Positions 20,119 through 61,993 of a stretch of DNA of 64,000 nt are shown in pieces. The position numbers were made by a program, and so were the translations under genes. How positions within the stretch are numbered: position 1 is the first letter of the stretch; each line of letters starts with the position of its first letter. Below the pieces are notes generated by a model, which was given only the letters and a program-made list of their open reading frames with translations, did no database searches and was not told the origin of the DNA. This stretch comes from a virus (lineage: Duplodnaviria > Caudoviricetes): positions 31,254-95,253 of IMG/VR virus record IMGVR_UViG_2600254917_000001. One strand, 5' to 3'.

Positions 20119-20855
20119 TGCTGGCAACCGAAGTGCGAATGACAAGCAGGGAGATTGCCGAACTAACGGGTAAACGACACCCAGATGTGAAGCGTGATAT
20201 CGACACTATGCTCGTTGAGCTCAATGAAGATGTGAGCAATTTTGCTCACATCTACTTGGACAGCATGAACCGGCAGCAAACTGAGTTCAGTCTCGATCGC
20301 CTGCATGTTGAATGCCTTCTTATGGGCTACAGTGCAACCCTGCGCATGAAGGTCCTTAAGCGCCTGAAAGAGCTCGAATCGCTCCAACAAGATGCGCCGG
20401 TGCCGTCGGTCCCCAGCAGCGCAGCCGACACGATCGCAGCTGGCGGAGCTCTGCTGGAAGTGAGCAGAAAATTACTCCACATATCGGATAGCAGCGTGCT
20501 CGCGGGGCTACGCAAACTGCAAAGCGCAGCTGGGCTGCCGGACCTGCTCCCGGGTTACGCCATCGATGCACCACCGTCCGCCACGGGCGGCAGCAGTGAG
20601 CCAACGGCGAGCCTTCGCCAGCTGCTGGTGGAGAACGGGGTGAAGATGTCCGCGCAAAAAGCGTATGCCCGCCTGGCGGAGCTGGGGATTGTCGAGCAGA
20701 AGACGCGGACCAGCACCCGCGGCGAAAAGCATTACTGGTGCCTGACGGCCAAGGGCATGGAGTACGGCAAGAACCTGACCGCGCCGGGGAACCCCCGCGC
20801 TACCCAGCCGCACTTCTTCACTTCGCGTTTCACTAGACTGGTTGAGCAGCTGTAA
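20115..20855 (+). CDS. Rha-family antirepressor-like protein, copy 1
   Basis: MTSREIAELTGKRHPDVKRDI Rha domain plus shared C-terminus GKNLTAPGNPRATQPHF. Confidence 0.8.
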   Translation: MMLATEVRMTSREIAELTGKRHPDVKRDIDTMLVELNEDVSNFAHIYLDSMNRQQTEFSLDRLHVECLLMGYSATLRMKVLKRLKELESLQQDAPVPSVPSSAADTIAAGGALLEVSRKLLHISDSSVLAGLRKLQSAAGLPDLLPGYAIDAPPSATGGSSEPTASLRQLLVENGVKMSAQKAYARLAELGIVEQKTRTSTRGEKHYWCLTAKGMEYGKNLTAPGNPRATQPHFFTSRFTRLVEQL

Positions 20856-28660: not shown

Positions 28661-29000
28661 TTTGTTGTTTGTCGCATCAGCTTCTGTAGCAGCTGATGCA
28701 ACAGTTAAATCAATGGCGCATGCAACTTATATGTGCGGTGAGAGCGGCTTAGTTGTAAAAACTACTGGCCTAACTGCAAGCATCGACGGCGTGAGCGATT
28801 ACAAAATGTACGCAAGTGATAATCAACCAGCATCTGATACCCTTCCTGGTTTCGTTAGCGTCTCATATCGGTCTGCGACCAATGAAAGCAACTGGTTTTC
28901 ATTATCATTGACTAAAAAAAGCGAATACATCTCCCTCACAAACGTCAATAAATCAAAAGGCTTAGAGCAGATTGGACTTTCTTGCCAGATTGTTGAGTAA
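28638..29000 (+). CDS. Exported hypothetical protein
   Basis: Signal peptide MKKLIIASLLFVASASVAA. Confidence 0.6.
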   Translation: MKKLIIASLLFVASASVAADATVKSMAHATYMCGESGLVVKTTGLTASIDGVSDYKMYASDNQPASDTLPGFVSVSYRSATNESNWFSLSLTKKSEYISLTNVNKSKGLEQIGLSCQIVE

Positions 29001-39902: not shown

Positions 39903-40322
39903 TCAGCTTTTGCCGTGCTTAGCCAGGCGCTCAAGAGCCGCTTTCAGTTCTTCAGGAGCGTCCTGGGCGACATACTCCAGCACCGCAGCGCTATCAGCAC
40001 CTAAAACGCTGACATACCCTCTTTTTCCTGTTTCTTTCCCAACGTCATTGTTAATCCGCACCTCGATCGCCAGAAGAGATGGTAATAAGCCGTTCTTCAG
40101 CTCGCGCTCCATTTTTGGCAGCGCCTGGCGCAGTCGCAGCTGCCAGGCTGGGCTGGCCACTTCAAGTATCAGCGTCGCGTCACGATAGTTGGCAACGCGA
40201 AACCATGGGGCGAGCGATGCTGGTGCCACCTTTTTTATGGCACTATCCAACCGCAACAACTTAGCAGCGCGCGCCTGTATGCGTTGCAGCTGCTCCCCTT
40301 CCTGATCACCAGTCGAACTCAT
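39903..40322 (-). CDS. dciA: DciA (DUF721) helicase loader homolog
   Basis: LAPWFRVANYRDATLILEVASPAWQLRLR..LPSLLAIEVRIN..PEELKAALERLA matches gammaproteobacterial DciA as I recall it. Confidence 0.8.
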   Translation of the reverse strand: MSSTGDQEGEQLQRIQARAAKLLRLDSAIKKVAPASLAPWFRVANYRDATLILEVASPAWQLRLRQALPKMERELKNGLLPSLLAIEVRINNDVGKETGKRGYVSVLGADSAAVLEYVAQDAPEELKAALERLAKHGKS

Positions 40323-40715
40323 TGAAACTAGTCCTTATTTTTGCTTAAAGCCAGCGAAACGATCACGGCCAGGAATGCAGTTTGTGTGCTGATCACATGC
40401 ATCCAGTGATCTGATCACCGGGGTGGAGTTTGGATATGATCGCCTGCGTTGTAGCATTATAGCGAGTATAAGCAGTGTCTGACGACAAGCAGGGTTGGCC
40501 TTTTCACATTGAAAACTACACACAAATGGCACTCGATACAGGAGTGTCCATTGCTGCGTATGCTGAAATGTACGGGCTCAACCCGAATACATGCCGCCGC
40601 TACCTCCGCAAACCGAACGACACACCGCAGGCAAAACCCGCCCAAAAAACTACAAAAAAAGGCCTGATCACTGATCGGGCAGATGATCTCTTCTCCGATA
40701 AAAAGGAGATCAAAC
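40300..40715. other. Putative pac region (clustered TGATCA/G-type Dam sites)
   Basis: About 10 GATC, mostly TGATCA/TGATCG, upstream of and within 5' pacA. Confidence 0.55.
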
Positions 40716-41704
40716 AGAAGCGGTCAAAAGACCGGCAGAAGAAAAACACTGACTTAGGGGAAGTGAAGGGGCACGAGCGCACGTTGGCGGGCGGAAAAGC
40801 AATATTCGACGCCAACGGCAAGTTGATCAAATTCACGAGAGCCCCGCGTGGGTCTATCGACACCCAGTTCAAGCCTGGTAACAAGGCCAACCGCAATCCG
40901 ATTCTTCACGGCGCCTACGTCACTCCGACTGACCAGGATATCGCTCAGGCTCAACACCTGATTGAAAGCGGCATCATGGAGTCGATAGACGAGTACCTCA
41001 TCTCACATAACCTCGCCCACCTGTTACTTATCAGCCGCAGCCGCGACCGCTCGCTTGAAATTTTCGACGAGCAGGAGCGTGAGCTGGTGATGGTCAATCA
41101 AGGGGGAAAGCGCAAGAAGAAAGATGACGATGATGGTCCGGTTCGTGATGAAGTGCCGCCGGAGTTCAAAAAGCTCTCAATGCTGGTGAACGCCTCTGAA
41201 GCGATAGCCAGTATCACCCGAAACATATCGTCGGTGCGGCAGGTCCTGGATAAACGCCGCAAGGAAGCCGAGAAGCGAGATCTCGATGGTGAATATCGCG
41301 AGGCGATTGTTGATGCATTCCGGCTGCAGGAGCTGCATAACTGGACAGCACTGGAAACGGCCGTATTCATCGAGCGCCAGGGCTTTAAAGTCCCGGCTAC
41401 CCTGGCCCTTATCGTTCAAAATGAACTGAAATTACCGCCACCAGCTGATGATACGAGCAATGTTGATGAGGAGCAGCTTGATAAAGAGGCTCGTGCGTAC
41501 CGAGACAAGCAGCGTGCAGCCGAGGAATTCAGAACTAACCGGCGTAAAGATGTGTCGGAGATCGTTGATAAGCGCGGGTATGGCGATATCGATGAGAACG
41601 GCCAACAGCGCGCGGACCTGGACTACGGCTATGACGAAGAGGACGGTGAAGAGTGGGATGATGAAGAGGAAGACCAGTGGAACGCTGATGAGGGTTCTGC
41701 GTAA
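40475..41704 (+). CDS. pacA: Terminase small subunit PacA
   Basis: [28 protein letters not shown] motif, acidic tail; precedes pacB. Confidence 0.85.
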
Positions 41705-43203
41705 TGGCTCACGGTCGCAAAAAGATAAGGTGCGTCACGTCAGATCCTCGTTGGTATGAGCTGGTCCGTAAGTACCGATACCAGTGGGGGCTTGCTGCAG
41801 TGCAGCTCTTCGGTAAAACGCCTACCTGGCAGCAAGACCTGATACTCGACTCAGTACAAGATTCCGGCAGCCGAACGACGGTTTCATCCGGCCACGGTAC
41901 CGGTAAATCGGATATGGCCAGCATCATGGTTATGCTGTTCCTAATCCTCTTCCCACATGCCCGCGTTGTGCTGGTTGCGACGAAAATCGGGCAGGTCCGT
42001 AACGGTATTTTCAAATACATGCGGCAAAACTGGGCTGAGTGTACGAAGCGCTATCCGTGGCTGGCGGAGTACTTCATCCTTACCGACACTGCGTTTTACG
42101 AGCGCACCCAAAAAGGCTCGTGGGAAGTTGTGGCGAAGGGTTTCCGTCTGGGGAATGAGGAAGCCCTTGCCGGTGAGCATGCAAAGCATCTTTTCTACAT
42201 CATTGACGAAGCCTCAGGGGTATCTGATAAGGCGATCGGCGTTATCAAAGGGGCGCTGACGCAGGAAGACAACCGCCTCTTACTCACCTCACAGCCTACT
42301 CGCCCGAGCGGCCACTTCTACGATAGCCATCACTCGCTTAAACGCACTCCAGCCTATCCTGAGGGCTATAACGCGATCGTTCTCAACAGTGAAGAGTCAC
42401 CGCTTGTCACCCTGAACTTTATCAAAGAGAAGCTGGCCGAGTATGGTGGGCGTGATAGCCCTGAATACATGATCAAGGTACTCGGTAGGTTCCCGTCGAT
42501 GTCGAACGAGTTCCTGTTAGGGCTTGATGAATGTGAGCGAGCTGCACGGCGCCCAATTCGGCTTAAAAAGGGTTGGGGATGGGTGGCATGTTGTGACGTC
42601 GGGAACGGCCGAGACAGTTCCGTGCTTTCCATATTCAAAATATCCGGTAACCGTAACCGGCGTCGCGTGATACCGCACCGCGTCATTGAATATGCGGGTA
42701 CCATCGACGCTGTGAAGTTCGCCGACGTGATCGTTGCTGAGTGCCGCGCCGACGTATACCCGAATATAAGCATTGTGATCGATGGGGATGGTATCGGTCA
42801 TAACACAGCTACGCTGGTGGAACGCGCAGGGCTGCAGGTGCAGCGCATACGATGGGGGAAACGTATGCACAGCAAGCAAGATAAGAGCAGATTTATCAAT
42901 CAGCGCGCCTATGCAAATATCGCAGCTCGTGACGCACTGCGCAGCGGGCGGTTACGGCTCGATCCTCAGTCCAAAGTAGTGCAGCAGGCATCAAAGATAC
43001 CGGCATCCCTTAATGAGCTGGGGCAATGGGTCATTATGAAGAAAGAGGTTATGCGCCAGAAGTTCAATATAAAATCACCCGACGTCTGGGACACGTATTG
43101 CTTTGCATTCCTGGCGAACTACGTCCCGGCCAACCAGGACGCGTATTATGACGATGATAGAGAAGAGGCTATGCGCCGGTACCTCAAAGGGCAAGCCGCT
43201 TAA
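41704..43203 (+). CDS. pacB: Terminase large subunit PacB
   Basis: SGHGTGKS Walker A, IIDEA Walker B, KSPDVWD. Confidence 0.92.
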
Positions 43204-44015
43204 GCTTTCTGTTGCTTGGCCTTTTCTTGCTTACGCTTAGCCACCAGCTTACGCTGAGCTTTGCGTACGTTCTCGCGGCGCATCTCAGCACGCAGCCGTT
43301 CTTCATAATCAGCAGTGATCGCGTCAACGATCTCAAGGTCATAAAGCTTACGGCTCTGCATAGCAATGCACGGAACAGGCTCCACCTGGTCATATACCGA
43401 ATAGCGCAACTGGGGCGTTGAGAGCTCCACGCCAGTTGAATCGAGATTCTTTTCACGAATGAACATGCCGTGCGCGCTGACGTGTACCGTTTCGCGCTTC
43501 GACTGACCGACAACGTAAAGATAAACCTGCATATCACGGTAGCCACCTTGGCGCGCACGGAAGCGATGGTCGGGATCATATTTCCCGAACCGCTCTTTCT
43601 CTTCCATGAGCGCATCAAGCAACTCGTTATCGCCGTCCTTTTTAGCCCTTTTGATCGCCATGTCTATGCGCTTAAGGACATCGGTCGTAATGTAGTTTCT
43701 TACTACGGTCGCTGTATTGAAGGTGATGCGTGCGCCGCGCACGTTCTCATGTATGAACGGTATGGGGTAAAGATCTGAAGAGCTGCGCGGAAAGCGTTTG
43801 TCGTCGTAAGAGCTGAGCTCTTCAACAAGTGCTTTCCACTTCTCAATGCGGGCAACCCAAGTCATGTATTCTGCTTCAGAAACGATAACGACCGGTCGAG
43901 ATGCAACACCGGTTTCATCGACATCGGCAAACCTGGCACTTTTATGAGCAGCTTTCAGGAACTCACTTTTGTGCTGGAGGAATTGCTTATAAGTAGCTTC
44001 AACCGATGGTGACAT
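43200..44015 (-). CDS. c1: C1 primary repressor
   Basis: [27 protein letters not shown] resemble P1 C1; convergent with pacB as in P1. Confidence 0.8.
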
Positions 44016-44119: not shown

Positions 44120-44332
44120 TTAGGTGTGATTTGACTTATAGATTGCTTGAATGTGTTTGCGTAGTTTGAGGCGGCAATCACACTTGCCCTGACATCCACA
44201 GAAGTACGAACCGGCATAGAGACGGTCGGTTAAAGCACTAATAAGTTTTCGGTCATTGATCAAAAGAAACATGTCACGGCGGAGACGTTCGAGGTACGAA
44301 TAATCGATTCTTTTCATTGTATTTGTCGTCAT
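44120..44332 (-). CDS. Small protein at the coi position
   Basis: 70 aa upstream of c1, operator at 44338-44354; CxCxxxCxC motif. Confidence 0.45.
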   Translation of the reverse strand: MTTNTMKRIDYSYLERLRRDMFLLINDRKLISALTDRLYAGSYFCGCQGKCDCRLKLRKHIQAIYKSNHT

Positions 44333-44524
44333 GAATAACTCTTTAGTGTGATATTACTTTGTTAAGCGTTAAAAATGTTGTCCTTGGTAACATTTCTCGG
44401 ACAAGTACCATTCAGATCTATCTTTCTGGCCCCGTCTACGCCTACACGGCTAATCATTCTCTTGAGTTCCATTCATGAAACATATGGTAACGCACGTTAC
44501 TAACGTCAAACGCAAGAAAAACTT

Positions 44525-44558
44525 AAAAAGTAATATAATGGCACTTATATTACTTTAG
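44525..44558. other. lox-type recombination site AAAAAGTAATATA-ATGGCACT-TATATTACTTTAG
   Basis: 13-8-13 geometry, arms 11/13 inverted match with inner TATA; lies between c1 and cre. Confidence 0.8.
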
Positions 44559-44661
44559 GGGTTAGAATGAGAGGGGGAATTGCATGTGCGCTACGTGAAA
44601 TCTGGCGTACTGAGCCTGCCAAAAATTAAAAGAATTTACGTAGCGTCACCTTGTTTGCAGC

Positions 44662-45711
44662 TTGAATGGACTGAAATTGAATAAAATTACGCCTGTCGTA
44701 CCCGGAAAACATGAGGTCAGCACGGTAGTTCAGGGTGTCGATGCTGCTATTGCAGAAAATCTGCGCAAGTTTGTCGAGGACCGTGAAGCCTATTCATCAA
44801 AGACCTGGACTCAACTTGAGCACGTTTTTCGCGCTTGGGGCCGTTGGTGCTGGGAACGAAACTATCCGCTATTGCCGATCCACCCGGGCCACCTCAGAGA
44901 ATACGTCCTTCATCTGGCAAATCACTACAGCGTCAATTCTGTGACACTTCATATGTCTCTGCTCGCTATGCTCCAGCAACAGGCACAGCTCGTTCCGGCC
45001 AACAACCATCCTGACGTAAAGCGGGCAATGAAGAAAGTGCGCCGGTTGTCTGCCGAGAACGGCGAATACACCGGCCAGGCTATTCCGTTTTCGATTCACG
45101 ATCTGCGTACGGTCGCACTGGTCTGGCAAGATTCTGACGACATAGCTGATGTCAGAAACCTGGCTTTTCTTGCGGTCTCGTATCATACGCTGCTTCGAAT
45201 TTCTGAAGTTTCACGCTTCAGAGTGAAGGATTTTCAACCTTTGGCGAACGGTATGTCTACGCTATTCGTGGGTAGGACAAAGACCAACCTCTCTGGCGAC
45301 GGTACAGTCAAAGCTCTCGGTAAGTGGGCGACGCAGCTGGTTCAAAACTGGATAACAAAATCAGGGCTGGATGAATGGCCGGATGCCATTCTCTTCTCTC
45401 CGGTACACCGTGGCGGCCGAGTGCGGATCACAACAAGCCCCATGGCGATAAAAAATCTGGAGCCCATCTATCATGCGGCCTGGTACGCGCTGAATACTGA
45501 TCCTGCTGAGACACAAAATGGCCGTTATGCAACATGGACCGGACACAGCGCCCGTGTCGGTGCAGCATGCGACATGGCCGAGCGAGGCGTGAGTCTCCCC
45601 CAGATAATGCGAGAAGGGGGCTGGAAGAAGCCTGAAACGGTATTGCGGTACATCCGCCGTAAAGAGGCTTTTAGTTCAGCCATGCTCGACATAACAGATG
45701 AAGAAAGTTAA
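44662..45711 (+). CDS. cre: Cre-like tyrosine recombinase
   Basis: YHTLLRISE, RTKT, WTGHSARVGAA.DMA, GGW, VLRYIR catalytic residues; exact start uncertain. Confidence 0.92.
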   Translation: MNGLKLNKITPVVPGKHEVSTVVQGVDAAIAENLRKFVEDREAYSSKTWTQLEHVFRAWGRWCWERNYPLLPIHPGHLREYVLHLANHYSVNSVTLHMSLLAMLQQQAQLVPANNHPDVKRAMKKVRRLSAENGEYTGQAIPFSIHDLRTVALVWQDSDDIADVRNLAFLAVSYHTLLRISEVSRFRVKDFQPLANGMSTLFVGRTKTNLSGDGTVKALGKWATQLVQNWITKSGLDEWPDAILFSPVHRGGRVRITTSPMAIKNLEPIYHAAWYALNTDPAETQNGRYATWTGHSARVGAACDMAERGVSLPQIMREGGWKKPETVLRYIRRKEAFSSAMLDITDEES

Positions 45712-45865
45712 GTTCCGCTCCATATATTAATGATCACACACTAAACGTTTATTATCTTGCTTTGAGCAAAATTCAGCCTAAAATACGTAGTAAGCAAGCT
45801 GATCCTATCTACTTCCAACACCCTTCAGGGCCACTTCGGTGGCCCTTTTTTTTTGGTGAAAAACT

Positions 45866-46507
45866 ATGGCGAATAGAAAAATCCTGGCGGTATGCCTGTC
45901 GACTAAACAGCCCGCATACGCGACCGCTGCGTGGCTTGATGAGCACCTGGGCATACTTGACTTTAAGCCGTTACCCCCGCAGCGCAGCAAACTCGATGCC
46001 GCACTACTCCCTCTCCTTGAAGAGCATAAGAAGGACGGCTATCACATGATTATCGACGATGCTAGCGAGCGTATTAGCAGGCGTTACGGCATTCCGTTCC
46101 GTCTCAGCAATCTCGATAATCACGGTCGCCCTATGCTCATTTCTTCACTTGAGCTCTATAAGGAACTTCAGAACCAGGCAGCGATCACTTATCCGAAGGG
46201 ACTGCAAGGCATGTTTAGCGTTCCGGAGTCGATTGTCGATGAAGATACTGATCCACGCGGGAACACGATATTCCGCATCGACTGGGCCAGCATCACCACA
46301 CAGCATGTTTTAACCCTCCTTTGCGTGCAGGGTACCACTTACAACCAGGTTGGCAGTGCAGAGTACATTAATGCGATGGTTTGTGATAACACACTAAACA
46401 ATAATTCGAATCCATATAGCCCCCTTAGCGCTGTCATCTCTGACTATGAGCGGAGGAGTATTGAGAACATTGGCTCAGAGATGACCGGCAAGAAAGGGAT
46501 CCTATGA
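45866..46507 (+). CDS. mat: Probable Mat (particle maturation) protein
   Basis: PESIVD..RIDW..I..QHVL.LLC..T.Y resembles a P1 virion-related protein I recall as Mat; downstream of cre. Confidence 0.5.
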   Translation: MANRKILAVCLSTKQPAYATAAWLDEHLGILDFKPLPPQRSKLDAALLPLLEEHKKDGYHMIIDDASERISRRYGIPFRLSNLDNHGRPMLISSLELYKELQNQAAITYPKGLQGMFSVPESIVDEDTDPRGNTIFRIDWASITTQHVLTLLCVQGTTYNQVGSAEYINAMVCDNTLNNNSNPYSPLSAVISDYERRSIENIGSEMTGKKGIL

Positions 46508-50487: not shown

Positions 50488-51263
50488 ATGGAAAATTAAC
50501 CGGTTGTTACCGCGCGCGTGTTGTCGATGTAAAGCACCCGAAAAGCCTCATGATGGCCAAAGTGAGTGTAGACGCGTTGTGGCATGGTGTACCAGATGAT
50601 GCCTGCCCCTGGGCTGAGTACAATCTTGAGATCGGCGGTGCGTTTGCCCCATGCAAAATCGGAGACTTGGTCTGGGTGGACTTTCCGTATGAAGGGGACT
50701 CTCGGCGACCGCGTATAATCGGAGCCTGTCAGGATGCACCTGGTGGCGAGCCTAATGTCCCACCGGAGAGCTGGGGCGGTGCTGATGCGTATCAACCTCC
50801 TGAAATTGATGATGCACCGCCGTTGCGCGAGCTTAAGCCGACGGAAGATTATGTGTATAACCGCAATGGTCTACTTGAGATACGAACGGGAGGCGGTGGC
50901 TGGAGTGTTACTCACCTTGCTAGTGATACGACGATGGGCATGAACGAGAACGGGCAGATATTCATTATTAGCTCGCAGAACGTGTTTGTTCAGGGCGCAA
51001 CCGGCGTAAAAGTGAAATCAGGGGCAGACCTTGAACTGGAAGCAGCAGGGGATATCAAATTGAAAGCGGGTGGAATGGTCGAGTCGACAGCTGGTAGCGA
51101 CACAGAATTTAAATCCGTAGGCTCATTTAGCGTCAACAGCGGACAGAACACCAAAATAATTTCTGAGGGCTCATTTAGTGCCACCAGCGGGAAAAACACT
51201 GAGATCATATCGGGCATGTCATTCAATTCGACGAGTAAGCTCGTCACTTTCATGCAGGGATAG
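50484..51263 (+). CDS. Baseplate spike (gp5/gpV-like)
   Basis: YRARVVDV..PWAEY..GDLVWVDF..GDSRRPRI OB fold plus beta-helix-like repeats. Confidence 0.8.
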   Translation: MNGKLTGCYRARVVDVKHPKSLMMAKVSVDALWHGVPDDACPWAEYNLEIGGAFAPCKIGDLVWVDFPYEGDSRRPRIIGACQDAPGGEPNVPPESWGGADAYQPPEIDDAPPLRELKPTEDYVYNRNGLLEIRTGGGGWSVTHLASDTTMGMNENGQIFIISSQNVFVQGATGVKVKSGADLELEAAGDIKLKAGGMVESTAGSDTEFKSVGSFSVNSGQNTKIISEGSFSATSGKNTEIISGMSFNSTSKLVTFMQG

Positions 51264-51296
51264 AAGCAGAAGCTGGCTCTCACCAGCTTCTGATTG

Positions 51297-61793: not shown

Positions 61794-61993
61794 ATATCAT
61801 ACTAAACATTTTTTTAAATGCATAGTAAGGATACGCATCAGGCATGCATTAAAAATGCATTATAAGCACTTTTCATAATCACAATATGCATATGATGTAC
61901 ACACCTATAATTCTGTAAAGTAATTAAGCAGTTCAAAATAGCTTCATTTACGCCCTCGCCACCTTTATCATCAGTGATATCCTACTAAACATT
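61794..61993 (+). promoter_or_regulatory. Two putative C1 operators (61794-61810, 61977-61993) in a divergent promoter region
   Basis: ATATCATACTAAACATT and ATATCCTACTAAACATT. Confidence 0.7.

What the first reader, a model, noticed from the sequence alone, without database searches (positions are those of the whole stretch)
44525..45711. Candidate new Cre/lox pair
Seen: a 34-bp 13-8-13 site, AAAAAGTAATATA-ATGGCACT-TATATTACTTTAG, about 100 bp upstream of a Cre homolog with intact catalytic residues, where loxP sits in P1 (between the c1 region and cre). The arms differ from loxP, rox, VloxP, SloxP, vox, nox and pox as I recall them, so it may be an orthogonal recombinase tool. A partial arm (ATATTACTTT) recurs at about 44351.
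Basis: partly seen in the sequence, partly recalled or inferred. Interest (0 to 1): 0.75.

Follow-up and report, generated by a model that had tools for sequence, protein, structure and literature searches.

The report
New Cre/lox-type pair on Enterobacter phage-plasmid
A P1-like phage-plasmid of Enterobacter carries its own version of the Cre/loxP system, a Cre-family recombinase with a previously unnamed 34-bp target just upstream; it is a credible but untested new member of a well-known and already heavily mined family.

Summary
A 34-bp 13-8-13 site lies at 44525-44558 (AAAAAGTAATATA-ATGGCACT-TATATTACTTTAG). Its inner 11 bp per arm are perfectly symmetric, and it is the only such repeat in 64 kb. 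It sits 118 bp before a 344-aa Cre homologue (44677-45711, TTG start). The protein aligns end to end with P1 Cre (E 5.5e-65; 36% identity to Cre, 44% to Dre) and keeps all six catalytic residues.

The gene order matches P1/D6: terminase genes, c1-like repressor, small ORF, site, recombinase. The site is a conserved island in otherwise diverged intergenic DNA of relatives (E. kobei plasmids, one base changed). Sixteen other Cre homologues carry their own 13-8-13 site at the same place, with different, co-varying arms and an invariant ATA/TAT next to the spacer.

The half-site differs by 5 bases from loxP, 4-5 from rox, and at least 3 from every other relative collected. It was absent from the searchable literature, but a supplementary table of about 500 predicted pairs (PMC10250229) could not be read.

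Activity and orthogonality are untested. This is a new member of a known kind. The scan has noted similar Cre/Dre-type pairs on other phage-plasmids.

The parts
44525..44558 (+). lox-type 13-8-13 recombination site. Left arm 44525-44537, asymmetric spacer ATGGCACT 44538-44545, right arm 44546-44558.
   Evidence: (I6). One base changed in the E. kobei plasmids while the upstream flank is diverged. Homologous conserved island in L009. Family-wide site alignment A5.
44677..45711 (+). Cre-family tyrosine recombinase, 344 aa from a TTG start. The ORF is open from the TTG at 44662.
   Evidence: phmmer against PDB Cre gives E 5.5e-65 over residues 27-346. Pfam PF00589. 44.3% identity to Dre and 35.6% to Cre. 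Catalytic residues invariant. The exact protein is on record from Enterobacter hormaechei.
44589..44645 (+). Conserved inverted repeat between the site and the recombinase gene, probably a cre promoter or leader element.
   Evidence: the repeat finder I4. Matches P1 coordinates 109-176 at about 80% identity. In P1 the -10 of promoter P3cre lies in the left arm. Consensus fold of 18 pairs and z-score -4.4. The function is inferred.
44334..44350 (-). Operator-like 17-mer directly upstream of the 70-aa ORF. A second copy at 45737-45753 brackets the lox-recombinase module.
   Evidence: 4 matches in the window against 0.44 expected. In P1, C1 operators occupy comparable places. Assignment as a C1-type operator is inferred.
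44351..44360 (+).
   Evidence: (D18). Conserved 9 of 10 in E. kobei but not in L009. Compatible with chance.
44120..44332 (-). 70-aa Cys-rich ORF at the position of coi/imc in P1. No similarity to P1 Coi.
   Evidence: A homologous 68-aa ORF occupies the same place in L009. No BLASTP alignment to P1 Coi. No Pfam or PHROG match.
43200..44015 (-). C1-like repressor gene.
   Evidence: tblastn gives 28% identity over 84% of its length to P1 C1, E 7e-19. phrog_1678.
40475..43203 (+). pacA/pacB-like terminase genes upstream of the immunity region.
   Evidence: PHROG terminase families. The same order occurs in the E. kobei plasmids, D6 and P1.
45827..45846 (+). Terminator-like hairpin with a T-run after the recombinase gene.

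Best explanation
The 34-bp inverted repeat is the cognate lox-type target of the adjacent Cre-family tyrosine recombinase of a P1/D6-like phage-plasmid of the Enterobacter cloacae complex.

Inferred mechanism, by analogy with Cre/loxP: one recombinase monomer binds each 13-bp arm, and two sites synapse in a tetramer. Tyr330 (Cre Y324) cleaves at the edges of the 8-bp spacer, and the strands are exchanged in two steps through a Holliday junction. The asymmetric spacer ATGGCACT gives the site its direction.

Inferred biological role: circularise terminally redundant phage DNA after infection, and resolve plasmid-prophage multimers so that the low-copy plasmid is inherited.

Shown here: the site, the homology, the catalytic residues, the synteny and the comparative conservation. 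Inferred: binding, cleavage positions, activity and role.
For: 1. The protein is Cre-like over its whole length: E 5.5e-65 against solved Cre structures, with all six catalytic residues kept.

2. The site is statistically unusual. It is the only perfect 11-8-11 repeat in 64 kb, against 0.05 expected.

3. The layout matches P1 and D6: terminase genes, c1-like gene, small ORF, site, recombinase. rox lies 152 bp before dre in D6; this site lies 118 bp before its gene.

4. Selection on the site is visible.
- In two E. kobei plasmids (recombinase 87% identical, region 76% identical in DNA), the 34 bp differ at one base while the DNA just upstream is unalignable.
- In L009 (68% protein identity), the site and the leader motif are the only conserved islands in the intergenic region.
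- A 99%-identical variant in a public run carries the same A-to-G change at 44529 as E. kobei.

5. The family pattern is consistent. Sixteen other Cre homologues (Cre, Dre, Rahnella, Xenorhabdus, Edaphovirga, metagenomic) each have a best 13-8-13 repeat 110-320 bp upstream.
- In alignment A5, the ATA/TAT next to the spacer is invariant in 17 of 17 sites.
- The arms differ and co-vary: 91% of cells paired, and 9 of 13 pairs show double changes.

6. The site has the T at position 7 and the (T)ATA next to the spacer reported for active Cre-type sites (PMC10250229).

7. The residues at Cre selectivity positions K43, R259 and G263 are T, K and P here. That fits a different target.
Against: - No recombination product was observed. 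Contigs of four public runs show no joints at the site, which is uninformative.
- The relatives' sites were picked by scanning for inverted repeats, so the pairing statistics are partly built in. Only the invariant inner triplet, the shared spacer motif and the constant position are independent of that choice.
- In L009 the left arm matches the right at only 8 of 13 positions, so symmetry is not strictly maintained in the clade.
- In the published screen, only 8 of 17 comparably predicted pairs were active in E. coli (PMC10250229).
Confidence: 0.85

Rival explanations
1. The pair is real but not new or not orthogonal. It may already be listed among published predicted Cre-type pairs, or the site may be recombined by Dre, Panto or another known enzyme, or this enzyme may act on their sites.
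For: - PMC10250229 generated about 500 predicted recombinase/target pairs using criteria this site meets: 13-bp arms, 8-bp spacer, up to 2 asymmetries, within 1 kb of the gene. That table is not held as text.
- The same paper reports Dre acting on a site with four half-site mismatches to rox. This half-site is 4-5 mismatches from rox and 3 from the Rahnella-type site.
Against: - The site strings do not occur together with 'recombinase' in any searchable paper.
- 'Enterobacter' does not occur in the main text of PMC10250229.
- All database names for the protein cluster are generic.
- The recombinase forms its own clade apart from Cre, Dre and the Pantoea/Xenorhabdus groups.
Confidence: 0.3
2. 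The palindrome is mainly a regulatory element, either an operator for a dimeric regulator or part of a promoter of the immunity/cre region, and the recombinase acts elsewhere or not at all.
For: - A sigma-70-like match overlaps the site.
- In P1 the lox region is packed with promoters, a LexA box and C1 operators.
- The degenerate left arm in L009 shows that symmetry is not always kept.
Against: - The promoter-like match is no more frequent than in shuffles.
- The exact 13-8-13 geometry, the invariant ATA/TAT and the same position relative to the recombinase gene recur across 17 loci with unrelated arm sequences.
- No other lox-like repeat lies within 900 bp upstream or 600 bp downstream of the gene.
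- A distinct operator-like 17-mer already exists nearby.
Confidence: 0.05
3. The site and gene are relics. The architecture is preserved but the pair is inactive or too weak to matter.
For: - The start codon is TTG with a weak ribosome-binding site.
- About half of the predicted pairs failed in E. coli assays.
Against: - The ORF is intact and the catalytic residues are invariant across a clade spanning 50-98% identity.
- The site is under visible constraint.
- The elements are complete, roughly 86-109 kb circular plasmids or complete phage records.
Confidence: 0.08
4. The site is a chance AT-rich palindrome.
For: - The intergenic region is AT-rich, at 39% GC.
- The core pattern also hits AT-rich giant-virus and endosymbiont DNA at control level.
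Against: - Only 0.05 such repeats are expected per 64 kb.
- The site is conserved in diverged relatives.
Confidence: 0.01

Closest known systems
Dre/rox of phage D6
   Same: Closest characterised enzyme: 44.3% identity over residues 31-333. Same layout of pacB, c1, site, recombinase with no cra gene in between. rox lies 152 bp before dre, against 118 bp here. Both sites have an inner ATA/TAT and a TTAG outer end on the right arm.
   Different: The half-site differs at 4-5 of 13 positions and the spacer differs. The spacer's ATG end points the other way relative to the gene. The protein belongs to a separate clade.
Cre/loxP of phage P1
   Same: Full-length homology (E 5.5e-65) with an identical catalytic set. 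Both sites have 13-8-13 geometry and lie between the immunity region and the recombinase gene. Both share a conserved inverted repeat between site and gene.
   Different: Identity is 35.6%. The half-site differs at 5 of 13 positions (5, 6, 8, 9 and one outer position). There is no cra ORF. The selectivity residues K43, R259 and G263 are T, K and P here.
Mined Cre-type pairs (Vika/vox, Nigri/nox, Panto/pox, VCre/VloxP, SCre/SloxP, YR1-YR12; PMC4957104, PMC3082901, PMC10250229)
   Same: This pair meets the discovery logic and criteria those studies used. The site shows the T at position 7 and the (T)ATA motif reported for active sites.
   Different: It comes from an unsampled clade found in Enterobacter hormaechei, E. 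kobei and E. coli phage-plasmids. Identity with any of their sites could not be checked, because the sequences are in figures or supplements that are not held.

Membership tests
Cre-type tyrosine site-specific recombinase | Catalytic residues R-K-H-R-W-Y (Cre R173, K201, H289, R292, W315, Y324) | tested here: met
   R179, K207, H295, R298, W321 and Y330 are invariant in alignments A2 and A3.
Cre-type tyrosine site-specific recombinase | Homology to Cre over both the N-terminal DNA-binding domain and the C-terminal catalytic domain, at a length of about 340 aa | tested here: met
   Residues 27-346 align to Cre 20-340 with E 5.5e-65. The protein is 344 aa.
lox-type target site | Two 13-bp inverted repeats around an asymmetric 8-bp spacer, with at most two asymmetric positions | tested here: met
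   11 of 13 positions are complementary and the spacer is non-palindromic.
lox-type target site | Intergenic, next to the recombinase gene, at the place occupied by loxP or rox in P1/D6-like elements | tested here: met
lox-type target site | Sequence features shared by active Cre-type sites (T at position 7, (T)ATA next to the spacer) | tested here: met
   for the criterion. In alignment A5, ATA/TAT is invariant and T7 is present here.
Cre/lox-type system | Recombination between two sites by the recombinase alone, with the crossover in the spacer | not testable with these tools
   This needs a reporter assay. Contigs of public runs show no joints, which says nothing either way.
Known pairs loxP and rox (identity test) | The same half-site sequence | tested here: not met
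   5 mismatches to loxP (L034 35-68) and 4-5 to rox (L027 1409-1442).
P1/D6-like phage-plasmid | pacA/pacB terminase, C1-type repressor, tail genes, and circular plasmid relatives of about 90-110 kb | tested here: met

The most novel reading that the evidence does not exclude
The pair is active without host factors in heterologous cells and is mutually orthogonal to Cre, Dre, VCre, SCre, Vika, Nigri, Panto and the YR series. That would add an independent channel for multiplex genome engineering from a Cre clade not yet sampled.
Probability: 0.3. Interest if true: 0.45.

Novelty: new member of a known kind. Interest (0 to 1): 0.3.

Why it matters
Each independent Cre-type pair adds a channel for combinatorial genome engineering, such as lineage tracing, logic circuits and cassette exchange. 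It also adds a data point on how these enzymes read DNA.

This one comes from a separate clade, has a distinct half-site, and differs at the three known Cre selectivity positions. It also has unusually good comparative support.

The gain is incremental. The principle, the discovery route and hundreds of predicted pairs are already published. For phage biology, the finding simply shows that Enterobacter P1-like phage-plasmids keep the P1 strategy for circularisation and dimer resolution.

Tried and rejected
The sites of the 98% (E. hormaechei), 74% (E. coli) and 47-50% relatives could therefore not be fetched from their contigs.
- Single-protein scans of genome contigs with P0001 and of viral contigs with P0004 found nothing. 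The metagenome scan gave only distant relatives.
- The E. coli complete-genome search gave only a D6-like relative with 44% identity and its own site.
- The core pattern in viral contigs hit only giant-virus MAGs and one other record. I took these as chance AT-rich matches and did not follow them.
- The search for a loxB-like chromosomal site was inconclusive. The window's genome is the virus record alone. In 401 Enterobacteriaceae genomes there was no exact match, and hits at two mismatches or fewer were mostly in tiny AT-rich genomes, at the level of the reversed-pattern control.
- Read laying on four runs showed no joints or loose ends at the site, which is uninformative. The rows for the 93%-identical contig were cut off, so its site sequence could not be read.
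- Literature: the site strings were not found. No supplementary text is held for PMC10250229. The target sequences of nox, pox and the YR sites are only in figures.
- The 70-aa ORF was compared with P1 Coi and gave no alignment, so it is not called coi.
- The partial arm at 44351 was considered as an accessory binding site. This was not supported: it is at chance level and is absent in L009.
- No structure prediction was run, because the sequence match to solved Cre structures is already decisive.

Full report
**What is there**

The window is the last 64 kb of a 95,253-bp IMG/VR virus record. The inner 11 positions of the arms are perfectly complementary; with the first and last spacer bases this makes 12 (I6). 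The two outermost positions differ. It is the only perfect 11-8-11 repeat in the window, and 60 first-order Markov simulations of 64 kb gave a mean of 0.05.

Downstream, an ORF runs from 44662 to 45711. The identical protein on record starts at the TTG at 44677 (344 aa), as do its homologues. That leaves 118 bp between site and gene.

**The protein**

- It matches solved Cre structures over residues 27-346 with E 5.5e-65, and Pfam PF00589.
- By tblastn it is 44.3% identical to Dre of phage D6 and 35.6% to P1 Cre.
- The residues equivalent to Cre R173, K201, H289, R292, W315 and Y324 are present. They are invariant in a clade spanning 50-98% identity.
- At the three positions reported as key for Cre target selectivity (K43, R259, G263; PMC10250229 discussion), this protein has T, K and P.
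- In a FastTree of 62 family members, the protein and its six nearest relatives form their own clade. It is separate from Cre, Dre and the Pantoea/Xenorhabdus groups (midpoint root, supports not inspected).
- The exact protein and its 90% cluster come from Enterobacter hormaechei and carry only generic names.

**Context**

The gene order is two terminase genes (40475-43203), a C1-like repressor on the minus strand (28% identity to P1 C1), a 70-aa Cys-rich ORF, the site, then the recombinase. This matches the annotated P1 and D6 records, in which lox or rox lies between the immunity region and cre or dre.

The 70-aa ORF is not similar to P1 Coi. It does have a homologue at the same place in a relative. 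The nearest complete relatives are circular, non-mobilizable 96-kb and 109-kb plasmids of E. kobei that carry phage tail genes. The element is therefore a phage-plasmid.

**Comparative evidence**

- E. kobei plasmids: the recombinase is 87% identical and the region 76% identical in DNA. The 34 bp differ at one base (position 5 of the left arm, A to G), while the 40 bp just upstream cannot be aligned.
- A 99%-identical variant in a public run carries the same A-to-G change.
- L009: this is a complete 86.6-kb record with 68% protein identity. The homologous 34 bp and a leader motif are the only conserved islands in the intergenic region. However, its left arm matches its right arm at only 8 of 13 positions, and no better site exists in that record.
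- More distant homologues: in Edaphovirga, an unnamed enterobacterium, Xenorhabdus, Rahnella, an E. coli plasmid, three metagenomic contigs, D6 and P1, the best 13-8-13 repeat lies 110-320 bp upstream of the gene. The exception is one Photorhabdus locus, which has none.
- The 17 sites aligned (A5): the three bases on either side of the spacer (ATA and TAT) are invariant. The arms otherwise differ and co-vary, with 91% of cells complementary and 9 of 13 pairs showing double changes.
- Caveat: the sites were chosen as inverted repeats, so the complementarity is partly built in. The invariant triplets, the constant location and the recurring spacer motif were not selected for.
- Spacer: ATGGNACT recurs in several genera (ATGGGACT in Rahnella, Edaphovirga and Xenorhabdus). 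In P1, D6 and three other loci, the ATG end of the spacer points the other way relative to the gene.

**How different is the site?**

The half-site differs from loxP at 5 of 13 positions and from rox at 4-5. It differs by at least 3 from every relative outside its own clade; the nearest is the Rahnella type at 3. pox is reported to differ from rox at one repeat position (PMC4957104), so it cannot be identical either.

Literature searches for the site strings found nothing relevant. The main catalogue, about 500 predicted pairs in a supplementary table of PMC10250229, is not held as text. This site meets that paper's search criteria. The same paper shows that Dre and other enzymes accept sites with up to about four half-site mismatches, and that 8 of 17 predicted pairs were active. 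Orthogonality and activity therefore remain open.

**Mechanism**

By homology, the enzyme should work as Cre does. Two monomers bind per site, and two sites form a tetrameric synapse. Tyr330 cleaves at the spacer edges, and the strands are exchanged in two steps through a Holliday junction. The asymmetric spacer sets the direction.

The likely roles are circularisation of terminally redundant virion DNA and resolution of plasmid multimers. A cluster of TGATCA/G hexamers in and before the pacA-like gene, about 4 kb upstream, would place the site near a P1-like pac site. That reading is inference only.

**Surroundings**

A 15-18-bp inverted repeat at 44589-44645 is shared with P1 at about 80% identity, at P1 coordinates 109-176. 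There, the -10 of promoter P3cre lies in its left arm. It folds well (z-score -4.4) and keeps its pairing across P1, E. kobei and this element. It is probably a promoter or leader element controlling the recombinase.

An operator-like 17-mer occurs four times in the window against 0.44 expected. Two inverted copies bracket the lox-recombinase module.

The partial arm at 44351 abuts one of these copies. It is at chance level and is absent from L009.

**Verdict**

This is a new member of a known kind, better supported than a bare prediction but not surprising. The scan has reported comparable Cre/Dre-type pairs on other phage-plasmids.

Noticed in passing
window 44589-44645; P1 NC_005856 109-176 (L028): A 15-18-bp inverted repeat with a ~27-nt loop lies between the lox site and the recombinase gene. 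Its sequence is conserved between this element, the E. kobei plasmids and P1, although the recombinases are only 36% identical. Apart from the P3cre -10 in its left arm, it is unannotated in the P1 record. D6 keeps only the right arm.
   Followed up: partly
window 44334-44350 (-), 45737-45753 (+), 46390-46406 (+), 61798-61814 (+): A 17-mer (CACACTAAA, 3 variable bases, TTATT) occurs 4 times against 0.44 expected. Two inverted copies bracket the lox-recombinase module. It is a candidate operator of the C1-like repressor.
   Followed up: partly
alignment A5 (17 sites from window, L001, L009-L020, L027, L030-L032, L034): The spacer motif ATGGNACT is shared across genera whose arms differ. The ATG end of the spacer faces the recombinase gene in some lineages (P1, D6, L010, L030, L032) and faces away in the others.
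   Followed up: partly
L009 2861-2894 (IMGVR_UViG_2585427591, complete record): The homologous site has an intact right arm, but its left arm matches at only 8 of 13 positions. No better site exists in the record. It is either a naturally lopsided target or a decaying one.
   Followed up: partly
window 40304-40438 and 40666-40708: These are the densest GATC clusters in the window, with TGATCA/G hexamers in and just before the pacA-like gene. They resemble the Dam-methylated hexamers of the P1 pac site, about 4 kb from the lox-type site.
   Followed up: no
window 44667: The recombinase uses a TTG start with a weak ribosome-binding site. Three public-run variants and the E. kobei plasmids carry G instead of T at 44667, which strengthens the purine run before the start.
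   Followed up: no
window 28670-28703, 20224-20257, 51263-51296: Three other 13-8-13-like inverted repeats (11-12 of 13 complementary) are GC-richer and not next to a recombinase gene. They are probably hairpins or terminators.
   Followed up: no
window 44120-44332 (-); L009 2452-2658 (-): A conserved 68-70-aa protein with a C-x-C-x3-C-x-C motif sits at the position of coi/imc in P1. It has no family match and no similarity to Coi.
   Followed up: partly
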